A stretch of DNA of 64,000 nt from Naegleria gruberi (lineage: Eukaryota): assembly GCA_000004985.1 (NCBI GenBank), contig GG738928.1, one strand, 5' to 3'. A model generated the notes under the pieces. It saw only the letters and a program-made list of their open reading frames with translations. It was not told the origin of the DNA and made no database searches. Positions 15,036 to 64,000 of the stretch are shown piece after piece (positions within the stretch are counted from its first letter, which is position 1; each line of letters starts with the position of its first letter). The translations under genes were made by a program, and so were the position numbers.

Positions 15036-15108
15036 TGCCGACACCAGGGATCGAACCAGGGACCTTAAGATCTTCAGTCTTACGCTCTCCCAACTGAGCT
15101 ATGTCGGC
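15036..15108 (-). tRNA. tRNA-Phe (GAA)
   Basis: The reverse complement GCCGACATAGCTCAGTTGGGAGAGCGTAAGACTGAAGATCTTAAGGTCCCTGGTTCGATCCCTGGTGTCGGCA folds as a canonical cloverleaf. It has a perfect 7-bp acceptor GCCGACA/TGTCGGC, anticodon stem TAAGA/TCTTA with loop CTGAAGA, T-loop GGTTCGATCC and discriminator A. Confidence 0.95.
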
Positions 15109-16838: not shown

Positions 16839-19800
16839 ATGGCAAATCCAGCCAAATTAAAAAAAATGCGAACTTTATTATCTTTCGTAATCTTGCTCTA
16901 TTTATTCACTATTGTGGTCACAGGTGAGGTGAAATCCATTCAGCAACAACAGCAACGAGAATCCTCATTCACTTTCTTCCTGGATTCTTATCAAGGAACG
17001 GAAACAAATGTTTCATGTCTTGATGAATCCATTCCATGTGTTTACATGTCTCAAGTTATAGACTCGGCACGATCAATATTACAGCTGGGAAACAATTCCT
17101 CAACATTATCTTTAGAGATGAATATTCTAGTAAGAGGAGAAGTAATTGACTGCGATATTCTAATTGACTTTACTAATTTTACATCAAATTTTAAATTGAA
17201 TATTGTTGGGTGGGATGATGACGACTATTTCCTATCATCATGTTATCCTTTTCTACATGTAAATAGTAAAATAGATGAGTTGACCATTGTAAAGGGGTAT
17301 TCAATTCGAATAATAATTGTATTTAATTATGAAATGAAGAATTTATCCATTTCTAAATGTAAAGGAAGTCTTACTATTCAAACTTCAATTGAAAATGCAA
17401 ACATCTTGGAAAGCGAATTTAATTCATTAGAAATTACAAGTCAGATTCAAAATCTTGTTATACTAAACGATTCGATTACTTACTTACAAGGAAATTTGAA
17501 AGCTAAACAAGTGAAAATGGAAACTATTAATATTTCCAATTTTAAATTAGTGGAAATTAAGAATTGTCATTGGAGTTCATTCTCAGGGACAAGTTTATTT
17601 CATGGCGGAGAGAAATTCTCAATTCTTTCAAGTATTATTACAGGCCCAATGATGTTTGAAGTTGTGAGTGTTTTGGAAATAATCAACGTCACTGTTAGCA
17701 GGGTTAATTTTGAGCCAGAGAATGGAAATTTTTTTGGAATAGCCACAGTTGACCAAGTGACAATTGAAAGATGTAATTTTGTGGATAATACTATTGGTGG
17801 AAGTATGATTTCAGTACAACGTTGTAAAAATTTACTTATTGTTAATTGTAAACATTCCAATAATTTATCCAAGTTTATTACAATCCTGTCATCTAGTAGG
17901 AATCGAATTACAATTCAAGATTCTGAATTTTTCAATAATCAGGCAAGTGATGCCTTAATTGTTTTTGATTCCAATTATGTTGTAGATAGCACTATATTAC
18001 TATTAGATAATTGTAATTTTGTGAATAATATTGGAGGATTGACTGGATCCGCTCTGAAAATAACTAAAGCTAATGTTCTCATTTCGAGTTGTAACTTTTC
18101 ATTTAATAAGGCAGGTTATGGAGGAGCTGTCTATATGATAAGTCAACTTTCTACTGTTATCGAATATTCAAATTTCACTAACAATGAAGCAACTCAATCA
18201 GGCGGTGCAATTTATGTGGGAGATGTTTCAAATCTACGACAATGGGAAACAGTAGAAACAATTTGTGATTCTAATAACGCATTGGAAGCTGGAGGATGTT
18301 TATATATGAAAGGTAAATCAAAGATTGATGTGGTGTATAATTTTGCTGGAATCAATAAGGCAATTTGTTATGGTAACAATATTGCTACAGAACTCACAAA
18401 AAAGAAGTTTGAATTTAGACTCAATGGATTCGAATATCAATTGATTACCAATCAGAGTATTCAAATTTATCCAGGAGAATCCCTGGATTTGAGAATTATA
18501 TTATCAGATAGATACAATCAGAAAAGTGTAATGCTTCCTGAAAATCAAATGTCTATGAAAATCAATTCTAATAATTTAGTTTTACAAACACAAGGTTTTA
18601 CAAGCGGAAATGATAGCATACTTTCGAATAATATTCAAATACTTCTTAAAGAATATCAATATGCCAACTTCCATGAAGAAACAACTTTTTCATTCATATT
18701 GAAAGATATCGAACATTCGATTAGAATGAAATTGGTTGATTGTCCACCAGGATATACCATTTCTAAAAATTATGGAAATGTCAAATGTGAATACATTCCA
18801 ATAGAAATCATTCTTCCAGCTGCTATTGTTGGTGCTATTTCCTTAATTATTATATTTGTGACTGTAATTTTGGTGGGAATTTATATTGTTAAAAAACTCA
18901 AAAAATTGAGAAGACAAGAAAGAGCAGAAAAGGAAATTCAAAAGAAATTTATTGATAATTCTTTTGTTTTCAATAATGGCAGCAATGGTTCAGATTTGAG
19001 TGTTCCACTGGTTGAAAAATCTTTCAACTCTGAGGATTCTATTCGATACACTATTCCAATTGCAGAAATTGATATATTATCTAAAATTGGAGAAGGATCT
19101 AACGGATTAGTATATAAAGCAAAGTGGAACAGGACAGATGTTGCCATAAAACAATTGAAAACTTTAGGAGAAGAGGATGATGAAGAGTTTGAAAGAGAAG
19201 CTCTTTTAATGAGCTCATTAAGACATCCGTCAGTTGTTAGTTGCTACGGAGTTTCAATAACCAACGACAGCAAGTATATGGTTGTAAGTACTTACTTTTG
19301 AGAAATAATTTGAATTTATTGTATATTAGGTGGAATACTTGGAAAATGGAAGTCTTGAGAAGGCACTCTACAAGTCTAAAATTGGAAAAGAAAAATTGTC
19401 ATTCGAAACTAAATTGAATATTCTCTTGGATGTTGGAAAGGGTATGACCTATCTCCATTCGATAAGACCTAACAAGATTATTCATAGGTAAGTTTAGTTT
19501 CTATTTACTTTGGAGAGTTAACAATTTTCAGAGATTTGAAACCGGGAAATATTTTGCTTACCAAAAATTTAAATGCCAAAGTGAGTGACTTTGGGCTCAG
19601 TAAGATGGTTTCGAATAATACAGCCACAATGACCACAAATGTTGGAACCTTATTATACATTGTAAGTTTTTCACAATATTCCATTTAACTAATTTAGCAA
19701 TTTCCATCTTTAGGCACCAGTAAGTTTTAACAACAAATTAATCATTGATTTATTATTTAATATTTTAGGAATTATTATCTAATTATCACAAAGGACAAAC

Positions 19801-20161
19801 AACAAAATTGGATGTTTATTCATTTGGACTAATCATGTGGGAAGTTCTATTTGAAATGGTTCCATTTTCCAATGAACTATCTGATGCAACAACACCATTC
19901 TCTATTTTATTACAAGTAACCAATGGATTAAGACCTTCTCTTTCTGTTATGGGAGAACATTTCGAATATATTCAAGAATGGATTGAAGATCACTTTACAA
20001 TGAGAGAAATTCAAAAAATTGGAAAGCAAACCATTGAAAAATGTTTAAAAGATTATATTGAAGTGATGAAACTCTGTTGGTATAAGGAACCAAGCAATAG
20101 ACCAGAATTTATTGAAATTACAGAAAGTTTAGAATTAATTATTGAACAAATAAGGAAATGA
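16839..20161 (+). CDS. Receptor-type TKL Ser/Thr kinase with beta-helix (Pmp-repeat-like) ectodomain; join(16839..19283,19330..19487,19532..19661,19714..19719,19769..20161)
   Basis: All four introns are GTAAGT...AG, 44-52 nt, and all junctions are in frame. The signal/anchor is LLSFVILLYLFTIVVTG. The ~600-aa ectodomain carries GGAVYM, SGGAIYV and AGGCLYM repeats. TM segment: ILPAAIVGAISLIIIFVTVILVGIYIV. Kinase motifs: GEGSNGLVYKA, VAIKQLK, YMV/VEYLENGSL, IIHRDLKPGNILL, VSDFGLS, GTLLYI-AP-ELL, DVYSFGLIMWEVL, CWYKEPSNRPEF. Confidence 0.85.
19714..19719 (+). other. 6-nt microexon (GCACCA, Ala-Pro of the kinase APE motif)
   Basis: The context is ...TTATACATT|GTAAGT..(52 nt)..CTTTAG|GCACCA|GTAAGT..(49 nt)..ATTTTAG|GAATTATTA.... 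Including it restores GTLLYIAPELL. Skipping it deletes the AP of APE. Confidence 0.7.
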
Positions 20162-55951: not shown

Positions 55952-56799
55952 CACCTAAATGGATTAGTAGTTTNTGATATGTTCAATAAAAATCAAACTT
56001 TCTACATTTTTCTTACAATATTAGACTTAATATATGGAATTTGTTAAAAGAAATAATGACTGTTTCAAATAATTGCATTCAATATTAAAATTACAATTGA
56101 AGAAATGTAAAATCACAATAAGACATTCACAATTCAAGCTCACCAACAAGTAACATTGTGAAAGTCAAAGAGAGTTGAGTTACTAATTTCCCTATTTATA
56201 AAGGTGGAAAACAAGGTTTTTAATTGATACTTAGTATCAATTTTGATATAATTTCTCACAAGTTGGAAAATTACAGTTCTATTCATCTATTTTTCTATTT
56301 ATGATACTAATATCCGGGAATGATGTATTTAAATTGTTGTACTGAAATTGGCACATAGGGTAGCTTACAATCGCTTGTAAAACATTCCACTCACTCGCAA
56401 GCAATTAAAACCAAATGAATCACTTCACAACTTTTTCAAAGAAATCAATTCAAATAAGCTCCATAATTTAAAAAACATCTTTCCTATGTGAAATTCTCCT
56501 ACTCCTAGCTCTCATAGGATGAGTTCCAATATTTGGTCAAGTGGTTGTTGTCCTTAGTGAGAAGAAGGTTATTACTAATTTAGTTTATTGGTTATTGAAA
56601 TTGTAATTTAACAATATTAAATATAAATATTATGATCTACTAAATCCACTACAAATACCAATTTTAGAATATAATTTCATTGCTCTAACCAATTATATCC
56701 ACAACCCTTACATATTGAAATAACAAATATAAACACATTTACACACATGTTAAAATAGTTCAATAATAATTTCATCATGAAAAACAATTATAGAACAAA

Positions 56800-57294
56800 T
56801 TATTTATTTTTTTTAAATAATTCTAAAATATTTTTAAAATAATAAAAAATTATTAAAATTAAATTTGGTAATAAAGATAATTTTACAAATATATTATTAT
56901 TATAAACAGTTAAAAATAATAAATTATAAACATATAAATAACTAATTAAAGTAAATAAACCAATAAATAAATTTAAAATAAATTTCTTATTAAAATAAAA
57001 AATATAAAATAATAAAATTAAAATTGAAATTATAAAATAAATAAAACTTTCAAGATGAAATTGTCTAACAAGTATTTTATCCAAACTTGGTAATAATTTT
57101 AAATTCATTGGTAATGGTTTTGTAAAATAAATTCCCAAAGTAAAAAATAAACTTGTAAAAAAGTGTAAAATCATGAATAAATATTCTTTCATTAATATTT
57201 TTGTATTTCCTATTAAAAGATATAAAAATAATGTTAAATATATTAAAATAAATGATGAAAATGTAAATATTGAAAGACTTGTTATGGAAAACAT
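56800..57294 (-). CDS. Small multi-pass membrane protein (164 aa, 4-5 hydrophobic helices), no family recognised
   Basis: ATG at 57292-57294. The frame stays open for 164 codons in sequence of roughly 10-15% GC, where TAA/TAG/TGA should occur about once per 10 codons by a rough base-composition estimate. The protein is F/L/I/Y-rich with K/N loops. Confidence 0.5.
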   Translation of the reverse strand: MFSITSLSIFTFSSFILIYLTLFLYLLIGNTKILMKEYLFMILHFFTSLFFTLGIYFTKPLPMNLKLLPSLDKILVRQFHLESFIYFIISILILLFYIFYFNKKFILNLFIGLFTLISYLYVYNLLFLTVYNNNIFVKLSLLPNLILIIFYYFKNILELFKKNK

Positions 57295-57389
57295 TTTAAA
57301 AGATTATGATAATTATATATTATTAATGATGATGATGGTAATGATGGTATGAATGATATGATAACGATGGTGATGATTGTATTTTAATA

Positions 57390-57575
57390 CTATAATAATT
57401 TAATCAGTGATGAAGTATGATGATTGTATAAATTATCTTTAGAGTCAAAGATGATATGATGTTCCGAATTTTTTTTAATATTATTTTCATCAACAATCAA
57501 ATTTTTCCATTTCATACAACAAACTTGAACCTTAATAATACTACAACAACAACTAGTGGCACAACAATCAAACAT
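57390..57575 (-). CDS. Small Cys-rich ORF (61 aa), speculative
   Basis: ATG at 57573-57575 gives MFDCCATSCCCSIIKVQVCCMKWKN.... It is short, has no recognisable family, and lies 95 nt upstream of the 56800..57294 ORF on the same strand. Confidence 0.25.
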   Translation of the reverse strand: MFDCCATSCCCSIIKVQVCCMKWKNLIVDENNIKKNSEHHIIFDSKDNLYNHHTSSLIKLL

Positions 57576-57707
57576 TCAATTTGTAATTCATTCATATTCT
57601 ATCGATTGATTGATTAATTAATTCATACTATTTTATTATCATTTTACAAATATATACTACTACTACTATATATATATTAACTTGTTTACCATATATTTCC
57701 ATTATAA

Positions 57708-59445
57708 TTAAAGATATTCTTGTAAAATAGATGGTTTAAAACGTATAACAATAACCGAAATATTATCAGTACTACCCTTATCATAGGCTAATTCACGTAA
57801 AGTAATAGAGGCTTGAACAGGATCATTTTCATATCTGACACTTGTTACAACTTCCTCCTCACTAACATAATCCCATAAACCATCACAAGCTACAACAATA
57901 AATTCATCTCTATCAAACATAAAATCCATAACCATTGTACTTGCATCTGATATAATATAGGGATGAAGTGATTTATCACCAATTGCTCTCGTAATTGCTA
58001 AACATGCATTAACACGATTACCATATATAGTACCACCTGCATCTTTAACTCTTCTACGTTCATCAATTTCACTTGGTCTATGATCAACTGTTAATCTAAT
58101 AGGTTCACCACTTCTACATAATACAATTCTAGAATCACCTACATTACCAATATAGGCTATTTTTTCATCTATATATGGTATATATATAATTGAGGCTGTA
58201 CTTCCATCTCTATCATTTCCTTTACATACATTTTCATTAATTTCTAAAAATGTTTCACGTATTAAAAGTGGAATTACTTCACGTTTTGAAAGTGAATGTA
58301 AACAAATTTCATCAATTGATTCTTCTGTTGTTTTTTGTTCTCTTTCTTTATATTTTAAATGTTCTCTCAATTTACATAATAATAAATTACTCTTTTCAAT
58401 AGCTAATTCAATCAATTCTGAATATCTCATTGTATATATTTCTTCTCTTTCTTTTTCATTTAATAATCCATAATAACTTTCTATATTTATATTATTTAAT
58501 ATTGAACTTAAATCATATGAATCATTATATCCATTCTTATGAGAATTATTAGAATTATACATATTATGAGAATGATTCATATTAGAATTATTCATATTAA
58601 CATCTAAATCTTGTAATAATTTCTTAATATCTAAAAATTGTTCATAAATATTTAATTTTTCCTTAAATAAAACATGTAAATGTTCAGAAACATATTTAGA
58701 AGTATTTGAACCAACATGTCCATCACTTGTTATCTAATTGAGCATAATCATGTTGTCTAAATGTTAATTCACATACAAGTGCATCTTCCATTGTTGATCT
58801 TCTTCCTTGTTTTTCAGCATAACCTGATAATAACCAATCATTTTCTAATAATTCAGATTGAATAGGTTCAACACGTTGTTGATTACCTTTGTTTTTTTGT
58901 GCACGTCTATCAGCCTTTCTTTGATTCCTTTGTGAAGCCATTCTTTCTATAGCTTCATAGGTTTGACTACTTGGTGATGATGATTGTAATGTTGTATTAT
59001 TACTACTAATCACTGTTATTGTTTGTGAATGTGTTGTTGTTGTTGGTGATGATGAAGAGGATGAAGAGGATGAAGAGGATGATGAAGTAGATGAAGATGA
59101 TGAGGCTACTGATGATAATGATAGATTTATATTTTTAGGCTTTGTTTTAGGTGAATCATCGGAAATTGTTGGTGAATCAATGAGTGGTGAATCACTATCC
59201 ATTAATGATGATGATGAAGAAGAAGATGAATTAGTATCAATAGTTGTAACTGATGGAGAATCATCAGTAATAATAACATTATTTGGTGATTGATCAAATA
59301 TTTCCTCATTATTATTCTTGTTATTAACTCCTTCCATTATATTAATAATGAGTGGTGATTTTGCATCGGCAGAATCTTCTATCAGTTGATTAAAATTTAA
59401 ATTAATATTATCATTGTTGGGTCCTTTCTTTTTGCTTTCATTCAT
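57708..59445 (-). CDS. PP2C-family (PPM) Ser/Thr phosphatase with long S-rich N-terminal region; exons 58777..59445 and 57708..58733, intron 58734..58776
   Basis: Motifs: GYAEKQGRRSTMEDAL, DGHVGSNTSKYVSEHL, STASIIYI, YIGNVGDSRIVLCRSGEPIRLTVDHRP, ERRRVKDAGGTI, RVNACLAITRAIGDKSLHPYIISD, DEFIVVACDGLWDYVSEEEV, GSTDNISVIVIRF. The two track ORFs are in different frames. A GTATGT..(43 nt)..AATTAG intron joins them in phase 0. Confidence 0.85.
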
Positions 59446-61902: not shown

Positions 61903-63135
61903 ATGGCTAAAAAGAAGAATAATAATAAGAATAAGAATTCAGCCTCTTCGGCAACAACACCAGTTTCACCAGTGAGTGAAGTCAGTGAGGATAATAGTAT
62001 TGAAGAAACTGTTACATCATCAACAACAATGGAAGAGGAACAAACAGTATCAACAACAACTCAAGAATCTACAATTGATGAAGCCTCCACAATAACTTCT
62101 ACCACTGAACAACAAGAAGAAGAAGAAGCCTCTGATAAAATTCAACAACCTGAAGAAGTAAATTCATCATCTACAACAACAGCCATTGTTACTGAAGGAA
62201 TACCAACAACTAACACTGTTGAAACATCTGATTCTATTACTACTACTAATACTAATACTACTACTATTGATAATAACATTCCAACAAGTAGTACAACAAC
62301 AACAACAATTGAAGAAGAAGAAGAAAAAACAAATCAAAAAAGTGAAGAAGAAATTATAACAGAAGAAATTGAAAAATTAAAAGAAGATTTAACTGATCGT
62401 GTTAAAGTAGTAAGAGAAGAATTAGAATTACAATATGAAATTGAAATTAAAAAATTACAAATTGATCATCAAGAATCTTTAAAAAAACAATTAGATTTAT
62501 ATGAAAATAAGATTAATTCACTTGTTGAAACTCATAAATATGAAATTGAACAATTAAATGCTCAATTAAAACAAAAAGATGAAGAAAATTTAAATGAATT
62601 GGAAAATATTAAATTATTAGAAATTAAATTACAAGATCAATTAAATGAAAATAATTCTAAAGATTTAATAATTAATAATTTAAATAATAATATTGAAAAT
62701 TTAAATAATAATATTAATAATTTAAAAAATGAAATTGAAATTAAAAAATCTGAATTAAAAGAAAAAAATGAAAATTCAAATGAATTAAATGAAACTATTA
62801 AAAAACATTTAGAAAAAATTCAAAATTTAGAAAGAGAAGAATTAAATTCATTACAAAAAATTAATCATTTAAATCAACAATTAAAAACAACAAGTGAAAA
62901 GAATTCTGAATATGAAAATAGAATTTTACAATTAGAAGAAGAATTAAAATCACAAAAAGAAAATGAAACAATTATTTTACATAAATATTATCATCATGCT
63001 TTATTAGCTGTAAAATTAACTTTATCAAATATTAATTTTTCAGTTCCAGATTTGTTAGATGATTGTATTAAAGAACAAGTTAAAGAAGAAGATTTAGATT
63101 CTTGGATTACAAAGAAATTAGAATTACAAAATTAA
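61903..63135 (+). CDS. Coiled-coil protein with S/T/E-rich N-terminal region, no family recognised
   Basis: 410-codon ORF from ATG 61903. Residues ~150-370 show heptad-like K/E/L/N/I repeats (EIEKLKEDLTDRVKVVREELELQYEIEIKKLQIDHQESLKKQLDLYENKINSLVETHKYEIEQLNAQLKQKDEE...). Confidence 0.7.
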   Translation: MAKKKNNNKNKNSASSATTPVSPVSEVSEDNSIEETVTSSTTMEEEQTVSTTTQESTIDEASTITSTTEQQEEEEASDKIQQPEEVNSSSTTTAIVTEGIPTTNTVETSDSITTTNTNTTTIDNNIPTSSTTTTTIEEEEEKTNQKSEEEIITEEIEKLKEDLTDRVKVVREELELQYEIEIKKLQIDHQESLKKQLDLYENKINSLVETHKYEIEQLNAQLKQKDEENLNELENIKLLEIKLQDQLNENNSKDLIINNLNNNIENLNNNINNLKNEIEIKKSELKEKNENSNELNETIKKHLEKIQNLEREELNSLQKINHLNQQLKTTSEKNSEYENRILQLEEELKSQKENETIILHKYYHHALLAVKLTLSNINFSVPDLLDDCIKEQVKEEDLDSWITKKLELQN

Positions 63136-63269
63136 ATATTTTAATATTTATAATTATAAATAAAAAAAAACAATTTAAATTATTAAATCATAATGTGTTT
63201 TAAATTGTTGTTGATGAAGAAGAATATTTCAAAAGTTTAAATTATTATTAAATAAATTATTAATCAATT

Positions 63270-64000
63270 TTATCGTTCATTTATTTGATCATCAGATTCA
63301 TAACCAGATAATTGATTTAATTGATTATTATTATTTGGAAGTATAATTTCATTTAAAATTGTATTTAATTGATATTTTAATTCATCTTTAAATTGTTGTT
63401 GATTTATAATATTTGAATTATTATTTAAATTATTATTTAAATTATTTAATTTAAATTCAATTAAATGATTTAAAATATTTTTTAAAAAAGCATGATCATT
63501 TCCATGTAAAGAAATAAATAAATTATTAAATAATTCTAATAAATTATTATTTAAATCAATATTACTATATATATTAATTAAAGTACGTAACCATAAATCT
63601 AATTCATCTTGAGATGAACAACTCCATTCACTAATTTCACCATTTATAGTTTTAATTTCAAATCTAAATTTTAAATCATTATTTTCATTTTGTAATCTTT
63701 TTATACTTGTTATACTATTTATATCTATTATATTATATTTGGAATTTGAATCATTTCTATAATATAATTTACTTCTTTTAATTTTAACTTTGGTTTTTTG
63801 ATATCCAATTCCATTTTTACGTTTTTTAAATAAATTCCTTTTAAATCATATTTAATTATATTTTCATTTTTTTTAAAATTATTAAAATTATTATTATTTA
63901 AATTATTACTATTTATATTATTATTATTTATATTAATAATTGTATTTCTTGTTTGTTGTAAATTATTATCACTAATAGTTTGTCTATGAGTATTAAATTC
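63270..64000 (-). CDS. PH-domain protein, 5'-partial (runs off window end); apparent 1-nt frameshift in a homopolymer at 63832..63837; absent from the ORF track
   Basis: Read by hand on the minus strand; the stop TAA is at 63270-63272. The frame from ~63838 down reads LFKKRKNGIGYQKTKVKIKRSKLYYRNDSNSKYNIIDINSITSIKRLQNENNDLKFRFEIKTINGEISEWSCSSQDELDLWLRTLINIY (PH-like), followed by an N/Q/L-rich tail. The upstream frame from the window end reads ...NFKKNENIIKYDLKGIYLKN and is offset by one base. One extra A in the A6 run would give KGIYLKKRKNGIGY. Confidence 0.65.

What the first reader, a model, noticed from the sequence alone, without database searches (positions are those of the whole stretch)
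19662..19768. 6-nt microexon encoding the Ala-Pro of the kinase APE motif
Between exon 3 (ending ...GTLLYI) and exon 5 (starting ELLSNYHKGQ...) lies GCACCA. It is flanked by a TTTAG acceptor and a GTAAGT donor, and splits a 107-nt interval into introns of 52 and 49 nt. Only inclusion of this hexanucleotide restores the invariant subdomain VIII sequence GTxxYxAPE. Six-nucleotide exons are at the lower limit of what spliceosomes are known to define, and automated gene callers usually miss them.
Basis: seen in the sequence. Interest (0 to 1): 0.55.

Follow-up and report, generated by a model that had tools for sequence, protein, structure and literature searches.

The report
Missed 6-base exon in Naegleria kinase
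A receptor-like protein kinase gene of the amoeba Naegleria gruberi almost certainly has a 6-base exon, missed by the reference annotation, that supplies the Ala-Pro of the essential kinase APE motif. A sister gene has the same tiny exon plus a 5-base one beside it.

Summary
GCACCA lies at 19714-19719, preceded by TTTAG and followed by GTAAGT, and splits the 107-nt interval 19662-19768 into introns of 52 and 49 nt.

The window is Naegleria gruberi. The reference model (XP_002669332.1, NAEGRDRAFT_75740) removes all 107 nt and reads GTLLYIELL, without Ala-Pro.

The evidence favours the microexon:
- Chance predicts such a hexamer with both splice signals in about 1e-7 of such intervals.
- Including AP raises the Pfam kinase scores by 11-17 bits.
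- A 98.5% identical strain keeps it as GCACCT, a synonymous change.
- A paralog 40% identical overall keeps AG|GCACCT|GTAAGT, although the flanking introns have diverged beyond recognition.
- The downstream intron position (Pro|Glu, phase 0) recurs in N. lovaniensis and in a metagenomic relative.

The paralog also has a 5-nt exon (ATATT) just upstream, and no productive mRNA can be made without it.

No transcript data could be reached, so inclusion is inferred, not shown. Exons of 1-15 nt are already known and often misannotated in plants, so this is a new member of a known kind. It is apparently the first described in Naegleria.

The parts
16839..20161 (+). Whole coding region of the receptor-like kinase gene (NAEGRDRAFT_75740), with five coding exons including the microexon. 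It encodes a signal peptide, a beta-helix/PMP-repeat-like ectodomain, one transmembrane helix and a TKL-type kinase domain. The stop codon TGA is at 20159-20161.
   Evidence: Gene model built. It is identical in the exons to P0001 of N. gruberi. Pfam finds a kinase domain. The full-length paralog aligns along the whole protein.
19284..19329 (+). Intron 1, 46 nt, GTAAGT...TAG, phase 0, between KYMV and VEYLENG.
   Evidence: The same position is occupied in paralog L007 by a 47-nt intron.
19488..19531 (+). Intron 2, 44 nt, GTAAGT...CAG, phase 2, inside the Arg codon of HRD.
   Evidence: It is absent from L007, L001 and L004.
19532..19661 (+). Exon 3, encoding (R)DLKPGN...DFG...GTLLYI.
19662..19713 (+). 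Intron 3, 52 nt, upstream of the microexon. Donor GTAAGT; acceptor TTTCCATCTTTAG with a pyrimidine-rich tract. Candidate branch site TTTAACTAAT at 19684-19693. The nearer AG at 19696-19697 would give a 22-nt out-of-frame exon.
   Evidence: An intron at the same Ile|Ala position is found in L005 and L007. The branch site is inferred from the sequence only.
19714..19719 (+). 6-nt microexon GCACCA, encoding the Ala-Pro of the APE motif (kinase subdomain VIII).
   Evidence: chance; Pfam gain of 11-17 bits; GCACCT in the allele; GCACCT in the paralog with the same flanks.
19720..19768 (+). Intron 4, 49 nt, GTAAGT...TTTTAG, phase 0, between Pro and Glu of APE.
   Evidence: The homologous intron position is found in L001, N. 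lovaniensis L004, L005 and L007.
19769..20161 (+). Last exon, ELLSNYHKGQTTKLDVYSFG... to the stop codon.

Best explanation
The hexamer GCACCA (19714-19719) is a real, constitutively included 6-nt internal exon of a Naegleria gruberi receptor-like TKL kinase gene. It encodes the Ala-Pro of the activation-segment APE motif. Two ordinary short introns (52 and 49 nt), each with a consensus GTAAGT donor and a YAG acceptor, are recognised by intron definition. They are most probably removed one after the other. A 6-nt exon is too short to hold the 3' splice-site complex of the upstream intron and U1 on the downstream donor at the same time. Once one intron is out, the hexamer is part of a normal-sized exon. 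The reference annotation merged the two introns into one 107-nt intron, which stays in frame, and so predicts a kinase lacking AP. Shown here: the anatomy, the statistical improbability, conservation in an allele and a paralog, the conserved Pro|Glu intron position, and the better fit to kinase profiles. Inferred: actual inclusion in mRNA, the order of intron removal, and the branch sites.
For: (1) Anatomy: consensus donors and acceptors on both sides. All four introns of the gene are 44-52 nt and start with GTAAGT, whereas a merged intron would be 107 nt. (2) Chance: 0 of 2,000,000 shuffles gave AG+GCNCCN+GTAAGT, and the expectation is 4e-8 to 5e-7. (3) Protein fit: with AP, PF00069 scores 177.8 bits against 160.8, and PF07714 scores 184.9 against 174.2. 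(4) Allele or strain L005 is syntenic and about 98.5% identical. Its hexamer is GCACCT, a synonymous third-position change, like 6 of the 7 other exonic substitutions in the aligned stretch. The splice flanks are intact. (5) Paralog L007 encodes 1048 aa and is 40% identical overall, roughly three quarters in the kinase domain. It reads ...TTA T|intron 45|ATATT|intron 40|GCACCT|intron 49|GAG TTA..., which spells GTLLYIAPELLSNHH. Intron interiors at homologous positions show no residual similarity (z 0.5-0.9), yet AG|GCACCN|GTAAGT is kept. (6) In L007, skipping both tiny exons gives T+GA = TGA, and including only GCACCT gives TGC ACC TGA. A 5-nt exon is therefore obligatory for the conserved C-terminal 125 codons, so this organism must splice exons this small. 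(7) The Pro|Glu phase-0 intron also occurs in metagenomic relative L001 (GTLFYIAP|GTAAGT...CACAG|EILED) and in an N. lovaniensis paralog. This anchors the donor at 19720. Once that donor is used, only the acceptor at 19713 keeps the frame.
Against: No transcript evidence was found. Three protein-database searches found no RNA-derived product of this gene, and the spliced protein could not be looked up. The single 107-nt intron also preserves the frame, so sequence alone cannot exclude an AP-less isoform. The reference annotation chose that form. The allele comparison rests on a single substitution in the hexamer. The paralog and the allele come from one metagenome, with no organism label beyond their similarity to N. 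gruberi.
Confidence: 0.87

Rival explanations
1. The annotated model is right: 19662-19768 is one 107-nt intron and the kinase naturally lacks Ala-Pro (GTLLYIELL). The internal AG/GCACCA/GTAAGT is a relic or a coincidence.
For: The frame is preserved. The outer donor and acceptor are consensus sites. The JGI/NCBI model XP_002669332.1 uses this structure. One sub-lineage of paralogs tolerates non-AP residues at this site: SNE in N. lovaniensis P0086 and ANE in N. gruberi P0236.
Against: A coincidence has probability around 1e-7. A relic would not be kept with both splice sites in a paralog whose introns are otherwise saturated. It would also not be expected to change synonymously in the allele. 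Pfam scores fall by 11-17 bits. The other introns of the gene are 44-52 nt. The same reference model contains a second probable error, the 210-nt open-frame 'intron' at 17130-17339.
Confidence: 0.05
2. The microexon is alternatively spliced. Both the AP-containing and the AP-less (in-frame) mRNAs are made, and skipping acts as a switch that yields a crippled or regulatory kinase isoform.
For: Skipping keeps the frame in this gene. Exon skipping and intron retention were detected in N. gruberi transcriptomes in general (PMC6142364). Very short exons are intrinsically prone to skipping (PMC4674806, introduction).
Against: In the paralog the same exon cannot be co-skipped with its neighbour without creating a stop. 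Conservation there is therefore explained by constitutive use. Nothing in the sequence points to regulation. In short-intron, intron-defined systems such as plants, intron retention is more common than microexon skipping (PMC8831610).
Confidence: 0.15
3. The gene is a decaying pseudogene or pseudokinase, and its splice pattern in this region has no functional meaning.
For: No expression evidence was found.
Against: The spliced frame is open for 1043 codons. The catalytic motifs are intact: GEGSNG, VAIK, HRDLKPGN, DFG and, with the microexon, APE. Exonic differences from the allele are almost all synonymous. The paralog is equally intact.
Confidence: 0.02

Closest known systems
Ultra-short (1-15 nt) internal microexons of plants and green algae that genome annotation often misses (Yu et al. 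2022, PMC8831610; MEPDB, PMC12409088)
   Same: A constitutive-looking internal coding exon of a few nucleotides that encodes residues of a conserved protein domain. It is missed by the reference annotation and conserved in related genes together with the gene structure. Kinase domains (PF00069/PF07714) are the top microexon-bearing domains in Chlamydomonas. Consecutive rather than simultaneous removal of the two flanking introns is the proposed mechanism there, and it is inferred here.
   Different: The organism is a heterolobosean amoeba (Discoba), not a plant. The flanking introns are only 40-52 nt. Support here is comparative and has no RNA-seq. In the paralog, two microexons (5 and 6 nt) lie back to back.
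Single-nucleotide constitutive exon of Arabidopsis APC11 (Guo and Liu 2015, PMC4674806)
   Same: It shows that spliceosomes can handle exons below 6 nt, and that such exons cause misannotated cDNAs and gene models.
   Different: That case was proven by in vivo splicing and translation assays. The case here is a 6-nt exon (5 nt in the paralog) without experimental support.
Animal neuronal microexons (3-27 nt), recalled from established knowledge and not tested here
   Same: In-frame, very short exons that modify protein surfaces or motifs.
   Different: Those are alternatively spliced under dedicated regulators and flanked by long introns (exon-definition context). Here the introns are tiny, and inclusion is probably constitutive and needed for a core catalytic-domain motif.
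TKL-group receptor-like kinases of protists and plants
   Same: The kinase domain matches PF07714/PF00069 with all catalytic motifs. The best non-Naegleria matches are plant RLK/Pelle and amoebozoan TKL kinases.
   Different: The ectodomain has no significant Pfam match. It resembles only beta-helix/PMP-repeat proteins (PF02415 and PF13229 in distant hits).

Membership tests
Internal coding microexon (<=15 nt) | A consensus 3' splice site immediately upstream and a consensus 5' splice site immediately downstream | tested here: met
   TTTCCATCTTTAG|GCACCA|GTAAGT. GTAAGT is the donor of all four introns of the gene.
Internal coding microexon (<=15 nt) | Inclusion keeps the reading frame and restores conserved protein sequence | tested here: met
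   Phase 0 on both sides. GTLLYIAPELL is restored. Pfam scores rise by 10.7 and 17.0 bits.
Internal coding microexon (<=15 nt) | Conservation of the exon and its splice sites in homologous genes while the flanking introns diverge | tested here: met
   L005 has GCACCT. Paralog L007 has AG|GCACCT|GTAAGT with unalignable introns.
Internal coding microexon (<=15 nt) | Presence of the exon in mature mRNA (junction reads or cDNA) | not testable with these tools
   No RNA-derived product was found. RNA-seq exists (PRJEB23822; PMC6142364) but cannot be mapped here.
Active eukaryotic protein kinase (Pkinase / PK_Tyr_Ser-Thr, TKL-like) | Glycine loop, VAIK lysine, HRD catalytic loop, DFG, and APE in the activation segment | tested here: met
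   GEGSNG, VAIK, HRDLKPGN and DFG are in the annotated exons. APE is present only with the microexon. PF07714 scores 184.9 bits and PF00069 177.8 bits.
Active eukaryotic protein kinase (Pkinase / PK_Tyr_Ser-Thr, TKL-like) | Catalytic activity | not testable with these tools
   This needs biochemistry.

The most novel reading that the evidence does not exclude
In this Naegleria kinase family, three introns of 40-49 nt interrupt 11 consecutive coding nucleotides (T|ATATT|GCACCT|G in the paralog). This would mean that a deep-branching eukaryote constitutively splices tandem 5- and 6-nt exons by pure intron definition. The intron presence and absence among paralogs (none; Pro|Glu only; Ile|Ala plus Pro|Glu; all three) would mark a local hot spot of recent intron gain around the APE motif. 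That would give a natural system for studying intron gain and the minimum exon size outside plants and animals.
Probability: 0.45. Interest if true: 0.6.

Novelty: new member of a known kind. Interest (0 to 1): 0.45.

Why it matters
It corrects a reference protein (XP_002669332.1 / UniProt D2W2W9) that is currently predicted to lack part of an essential kinase motif. Without the correction, the protein could be misclassified as a degenerate or pseudokinase.

It also shows that ultra-short exons, documented so far mainly in plants and animals, occur in Heterolobosea. Naegleria annotations, including those of the pathogen N. fowleri, may therefore systematically miss them.

The paralog, with adjacent 5- and 6-nt exons, sets a demanding test for splice-aware aligners and gene callers. 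It also hints at dynamic intron gain or loss in this gene family.

Tried and rejected
- Transcript evidence: three protein-database searches (full length, kinase domain, and a 118-aa junction segment) found no RNA-derived product.
- N. gruberi paralogs P0087, P0094 and P0205, and the reference model P0001, are not on record for DNA retrieval.
- No other kinase lies in the window (tblastn).
- The JGI metagenome scan gave 29 loci. Those inspected are distant kinases with a contiguous APE, so they are uninformative.
- N. lovaniensis P0085/L038 has no intron at APE.
- Origin of the two flanking introns by duplication of one another: no similarity above shuffled controls (W_I3 against W_I4, z = 0.68). 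Rejected.
- A rough ORF-joining scan for other introns in the window gave plausible lengths of about 35-100 nt but ambiguous acceptors. I use it only as weak support.
- The alternative acceptor at 19697 gives a 22-nt exon that is out of frame. Rejected.
- A literature search for Naegleria microexons found nothing relevant.

Full report
**What is in the sequence**

The window is AT-rich eukaryotic DNA of about 31% G+C. On the + strand, exon 3 of a kinase gene ends at 19661 with GGA ACC TTA TTA TAC ATT (GTLLYI). Next comes GTAAGT...TTTCCATCTTTAG at 19662-19713 (52 nt). The hexamer GCACCA follows at 19714-19719. Then comes GTAAGT...ATATTTTAG at 19720-19768 (49 nt). The last exon begins GAA TTA TTA TCT... 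(ELLSNYHKGQ) at 19769.

All junctions are phase 0. Both the two-intron reading and a single 107-nt intron therefore keep the frame. Read-through from exon 3 stops after nine codons.

**The gene and the organism**

I assembled the CDS as 16839-19283, 19330-19487, 19532-19661, 19714-19719 and 19769-20161. It encodes 1043 aa:
- a signal peptide;
- a large ectodomain whose distant relatives carry beta-helix and PMP-repeat domains, although the ectodomain itself has no significant Pfam match;
- one transmembrane helix;
- a TKL-like kinase domain (PF07714 and PF00069).

The four introns are 46, 44, 52 and 49 nt, and all begin with GTAAGT.

The best database hit is identical in its exons: "predicted protein [Naegleria gruberi]", 962 aa. 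Its accessions are XP_002669332.1 / EFC36588.1 / NAEGRDRAFT_75740 / UniProt D2W2W9. That reference model reads ...NVGTLLYIELLSNYHKGQ.... It removes the whole 107 nt and lacks Ala-Pro.

**Is it more than chance?**

- GTAAGT occurs 25 times on both strands of the 64-kb window, which is no more than shuffles give. Four of those sit on the + strand within 442 nt of this gene.
- AGN6GTAAGT occurs twice in the window.
- I shuffled the interior of the 107-nt interval 2,000,000 times. AG+6 nt+GTAAGT arose 206 times (1e-4), and the version coding Ala-Pro never arose. The analytic expectation is 4e-8 to 5e-7.
- A hexamer that has both splice signals, sits in frame, and encodes exactly the two residues missing from an otherwise complete kinase signature is not a coincidence.

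**Fit to the protein family**

With Ala-Pro, the kinase domain scores 177.8 bits on PF00069 and 184.9 bits on PF07714. Without it, the scores are 160.8 and 174.2 bits.

Related kinases retrieved here read:
- GTLYYIAPE, GTLLYMAPE, GTLFYLAPE, GTIYYMAPE and GTLLYCAPE;
- GTLFYMSPE, with Ser in place of Ala;
- SNE or ANE in one sub-lineage only.

From established kinase structure (not tested here), the APE glutamate anchors the activation segment and P+1 loop to the C-lobe through a conserved salt bridge. Deleting the two preceding residues would shift that register.

**Comparative evidence**

This is the strongest line of evidence.

*(a) A near-identical strain.* L005 is a 4.8-kb contig from ENA metagenome ERZ929261. 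It is syntenic, with eIF4E downstream, and about 98.5% identical. Its hexamer is GCACCT. This is a synonymous third-position change in the proposed frame, like six of the seven other exonic differences in the aligned stretch. AG and GTAAGT are intact.

*(b) A full-length paralog.* L007 comes from the same metagenome. It encodes a 1048-aa protein with the same architecture. It is 40% identical overall and roughly three quarters identical in the kinase domain. Its DNA reads:

...GGA ACT CTA TTA T | GTAAGT..(45 nt)..TAAAG | ATATT | GTAAGT..(40 nt)..AAAAG | GCACCT | GTAAGT..(49 nt)..AATAG | GAG TTA CTT TCT AAT CAT...

This spells GTLL-Y-I-A-P-ELLSNHH. The same 6-nt exon is present with the same flanking signals. 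The intron interiors at homologous positions, by contrast, have no similarity above shuffled controls (z 0.5-0.9; alignment).

The paralog also has a further intron inside the Tyr codon, which creates a 5-nt exon, ATATT. The possible splicing outcomes in the paralog are:

| Tiny exons included | Resulting sequence | Outcome |
|---|---|---|
| Neither | T+GA(G) = TGA | stop |
| GCACCT only | TGC ACC TGA | stop |
| ATATT only | TAT ATT GAG (Y I E) | in frame, no Ala-Pro |
| Both | TAT ATT GCA CCT GAG (Y I A P E) | in frame, full motif |

The conserved 125-codon C-terminal exon can therefore only be translated if the 5-nt exon is used. This organism must be able to splice exons of this size.

*(c) The downstream intron position is older than the microexon.* A metagenomic relative, L001, has GTLFYIAP|GTAAGT...CACAG|EILED with no Ile|Ala intron. 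An N. lovaniensis paralog, L004, has GTLFYMSN|GTAAGT...AATAG|EMISG. Both junctions are phase 0 at the same site. This anchors the donor at 19720. Once it is used, 19713 is the only acceptor that keeps the frame. The nearer AG at 19697 would give a 22-nt out-of-frame exon, and it lies only a few bases after the candidate branch motif TTTAACTAAT.

*(d) Other relatives have no intron here.* These are P0080, P0081 and N. lovaniensis L038.

Intron occupancy around APE thus ranges from none to three within the family.

**How it most likely works**

Each flanking intron carries its own consensus donor, a plausible YTAAY-like branch motif, and an acceptor. In the window, the acceptor upstream of the microexon has the best pyrimidine tract of the four. 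With introns of 40-52 nt, recognition is by intron definition.

Six nucleotides cannot hold the 3' splice-site complex of the upstream intron and U1 on the downstream donor at once. The two introns are therefore probably removed consecutively. After the first removal, the hexamer is simply the end, or the start, of a normal-sized exon.

This is the model supported by RNA data for plant microexons, where the upstream intron tends to be removed later (PMC8831610). For Naegleria it is an inference. The order of removal and the branch points are not shown.

**Rival readings**

- *The annotated single intron with an AP-less kinase.* Not excluded by frame. It is contradicted by the statistics, the Pfam scores, the intron sizes, and above all by conservation in the paralog.
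- *Alternative skipping of the hexamer.* It remains possible as a minor isoform, because it stays in frame in this gene.
- *A pseudogene.* Unlikely, given the 1043-codon open spliced frame, the intact catalytic motifs, and the mostly synonymous differences from the allele.

**Comparison with what is known**

- A constitutive 1-nt exon is proven in Arabidopsis APC11 (PMC4674806).
- Some 2,398 microexons of 1-15 nt, mostly unannotated, are conserved and encode domain residues in ten plant species. Kinase domains top the list in Chlamydomonas (PMC8831610).
- The statement that 6 nt is the lower limit is therefore outdated.
- A full-text search found no report of microexons in Naegleria.

I classify this as a new member of a known kind. 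It is a correct and useful catch that fixes a reference protein and suggests a systematic annotation gap in Heterolobosea. It is not a new mechanism. The back-to-back 5- and 6-nt exons in the paralog, and the variable intron occupancy, are the most interesting extension.

**What is missing**

There is no RNA evidence. Protein searches found no transcript-derived product. The spliced protein could not be looked up. The N. gruberi assembly is not retrievable here. Mapping the existing RNA-seq (PRJEB23822; PMC6142364) for the junction TACATT-GCACCA-GAATTA would settle the question.

Noticed in passing
L007:3230-3374 (paralog, ENA metagenome ERZ929261): The paralog has a 5-nt exon (ATATT) directly upstream of the 6-nt exon. 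Three introns of 45, 40 and 49 nt interrupt 11 coding nucleotides. No productive mRNA is possible without the 5-nt exon, because the other combinations create TGA.
   Followed up: yes
window 17130-17339 (+): The reference model XP_002669332.1 also removes a 210-nt 'intron' (GTAAGA...GAAATGAAG) from exon 1. The segment is an open frame of 70 codons in AT-rich DNA. It aligns with the corresponding ectodomain segment of paralog L007, so it is probably coding and a second annotation error.
   Followed up: partly
window 16839 vs 16866 (+): An in-frame ATG lies nine codons upstream (MANPAKLKK-MRTLL...) of the annotated start. Which one is used is unknown.
   Followed up: no
window 19284-19329 and 19488-19531; L007, L001, L004: Intron presence and absence vary among family members. 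The KYMV|VEYL intron is shared by the window gene and L007 but absent from L001 and L004. The HR|DLK intron is found only in the window gene (and allele L005). This suggests recent intron gain or loss in the family.
   Followed up: partly
L005:411 (allele of window 19490): In the near-identical strain, the donor of intron 2 is GTTAGT instead of GTAAGT, and that intron carries a 2-nt deletion. This shows that the donor consensus tolerates T at position +3.
   Followed up: no
window 15036-15108 (-): A tRNA-Phe (GAA) gene lies about 1.7 kb upstream of the kinase gene.
   Followed up: no
window 20562 onward (+); L005:1486-3006: An eIF4E-family gene follows the kinase gene. In the allelic contig, two IF4E-domain genes lie in tandem, followed by a tyrosyl-tRNA synthetase-like gene on the opposite strand.
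   Followed up: no
window 56001-58000 and 62001-64000: G+C drops to 23% and 18%, well below the window mean of about 31%. The cause was not examined.
   Followed up: no
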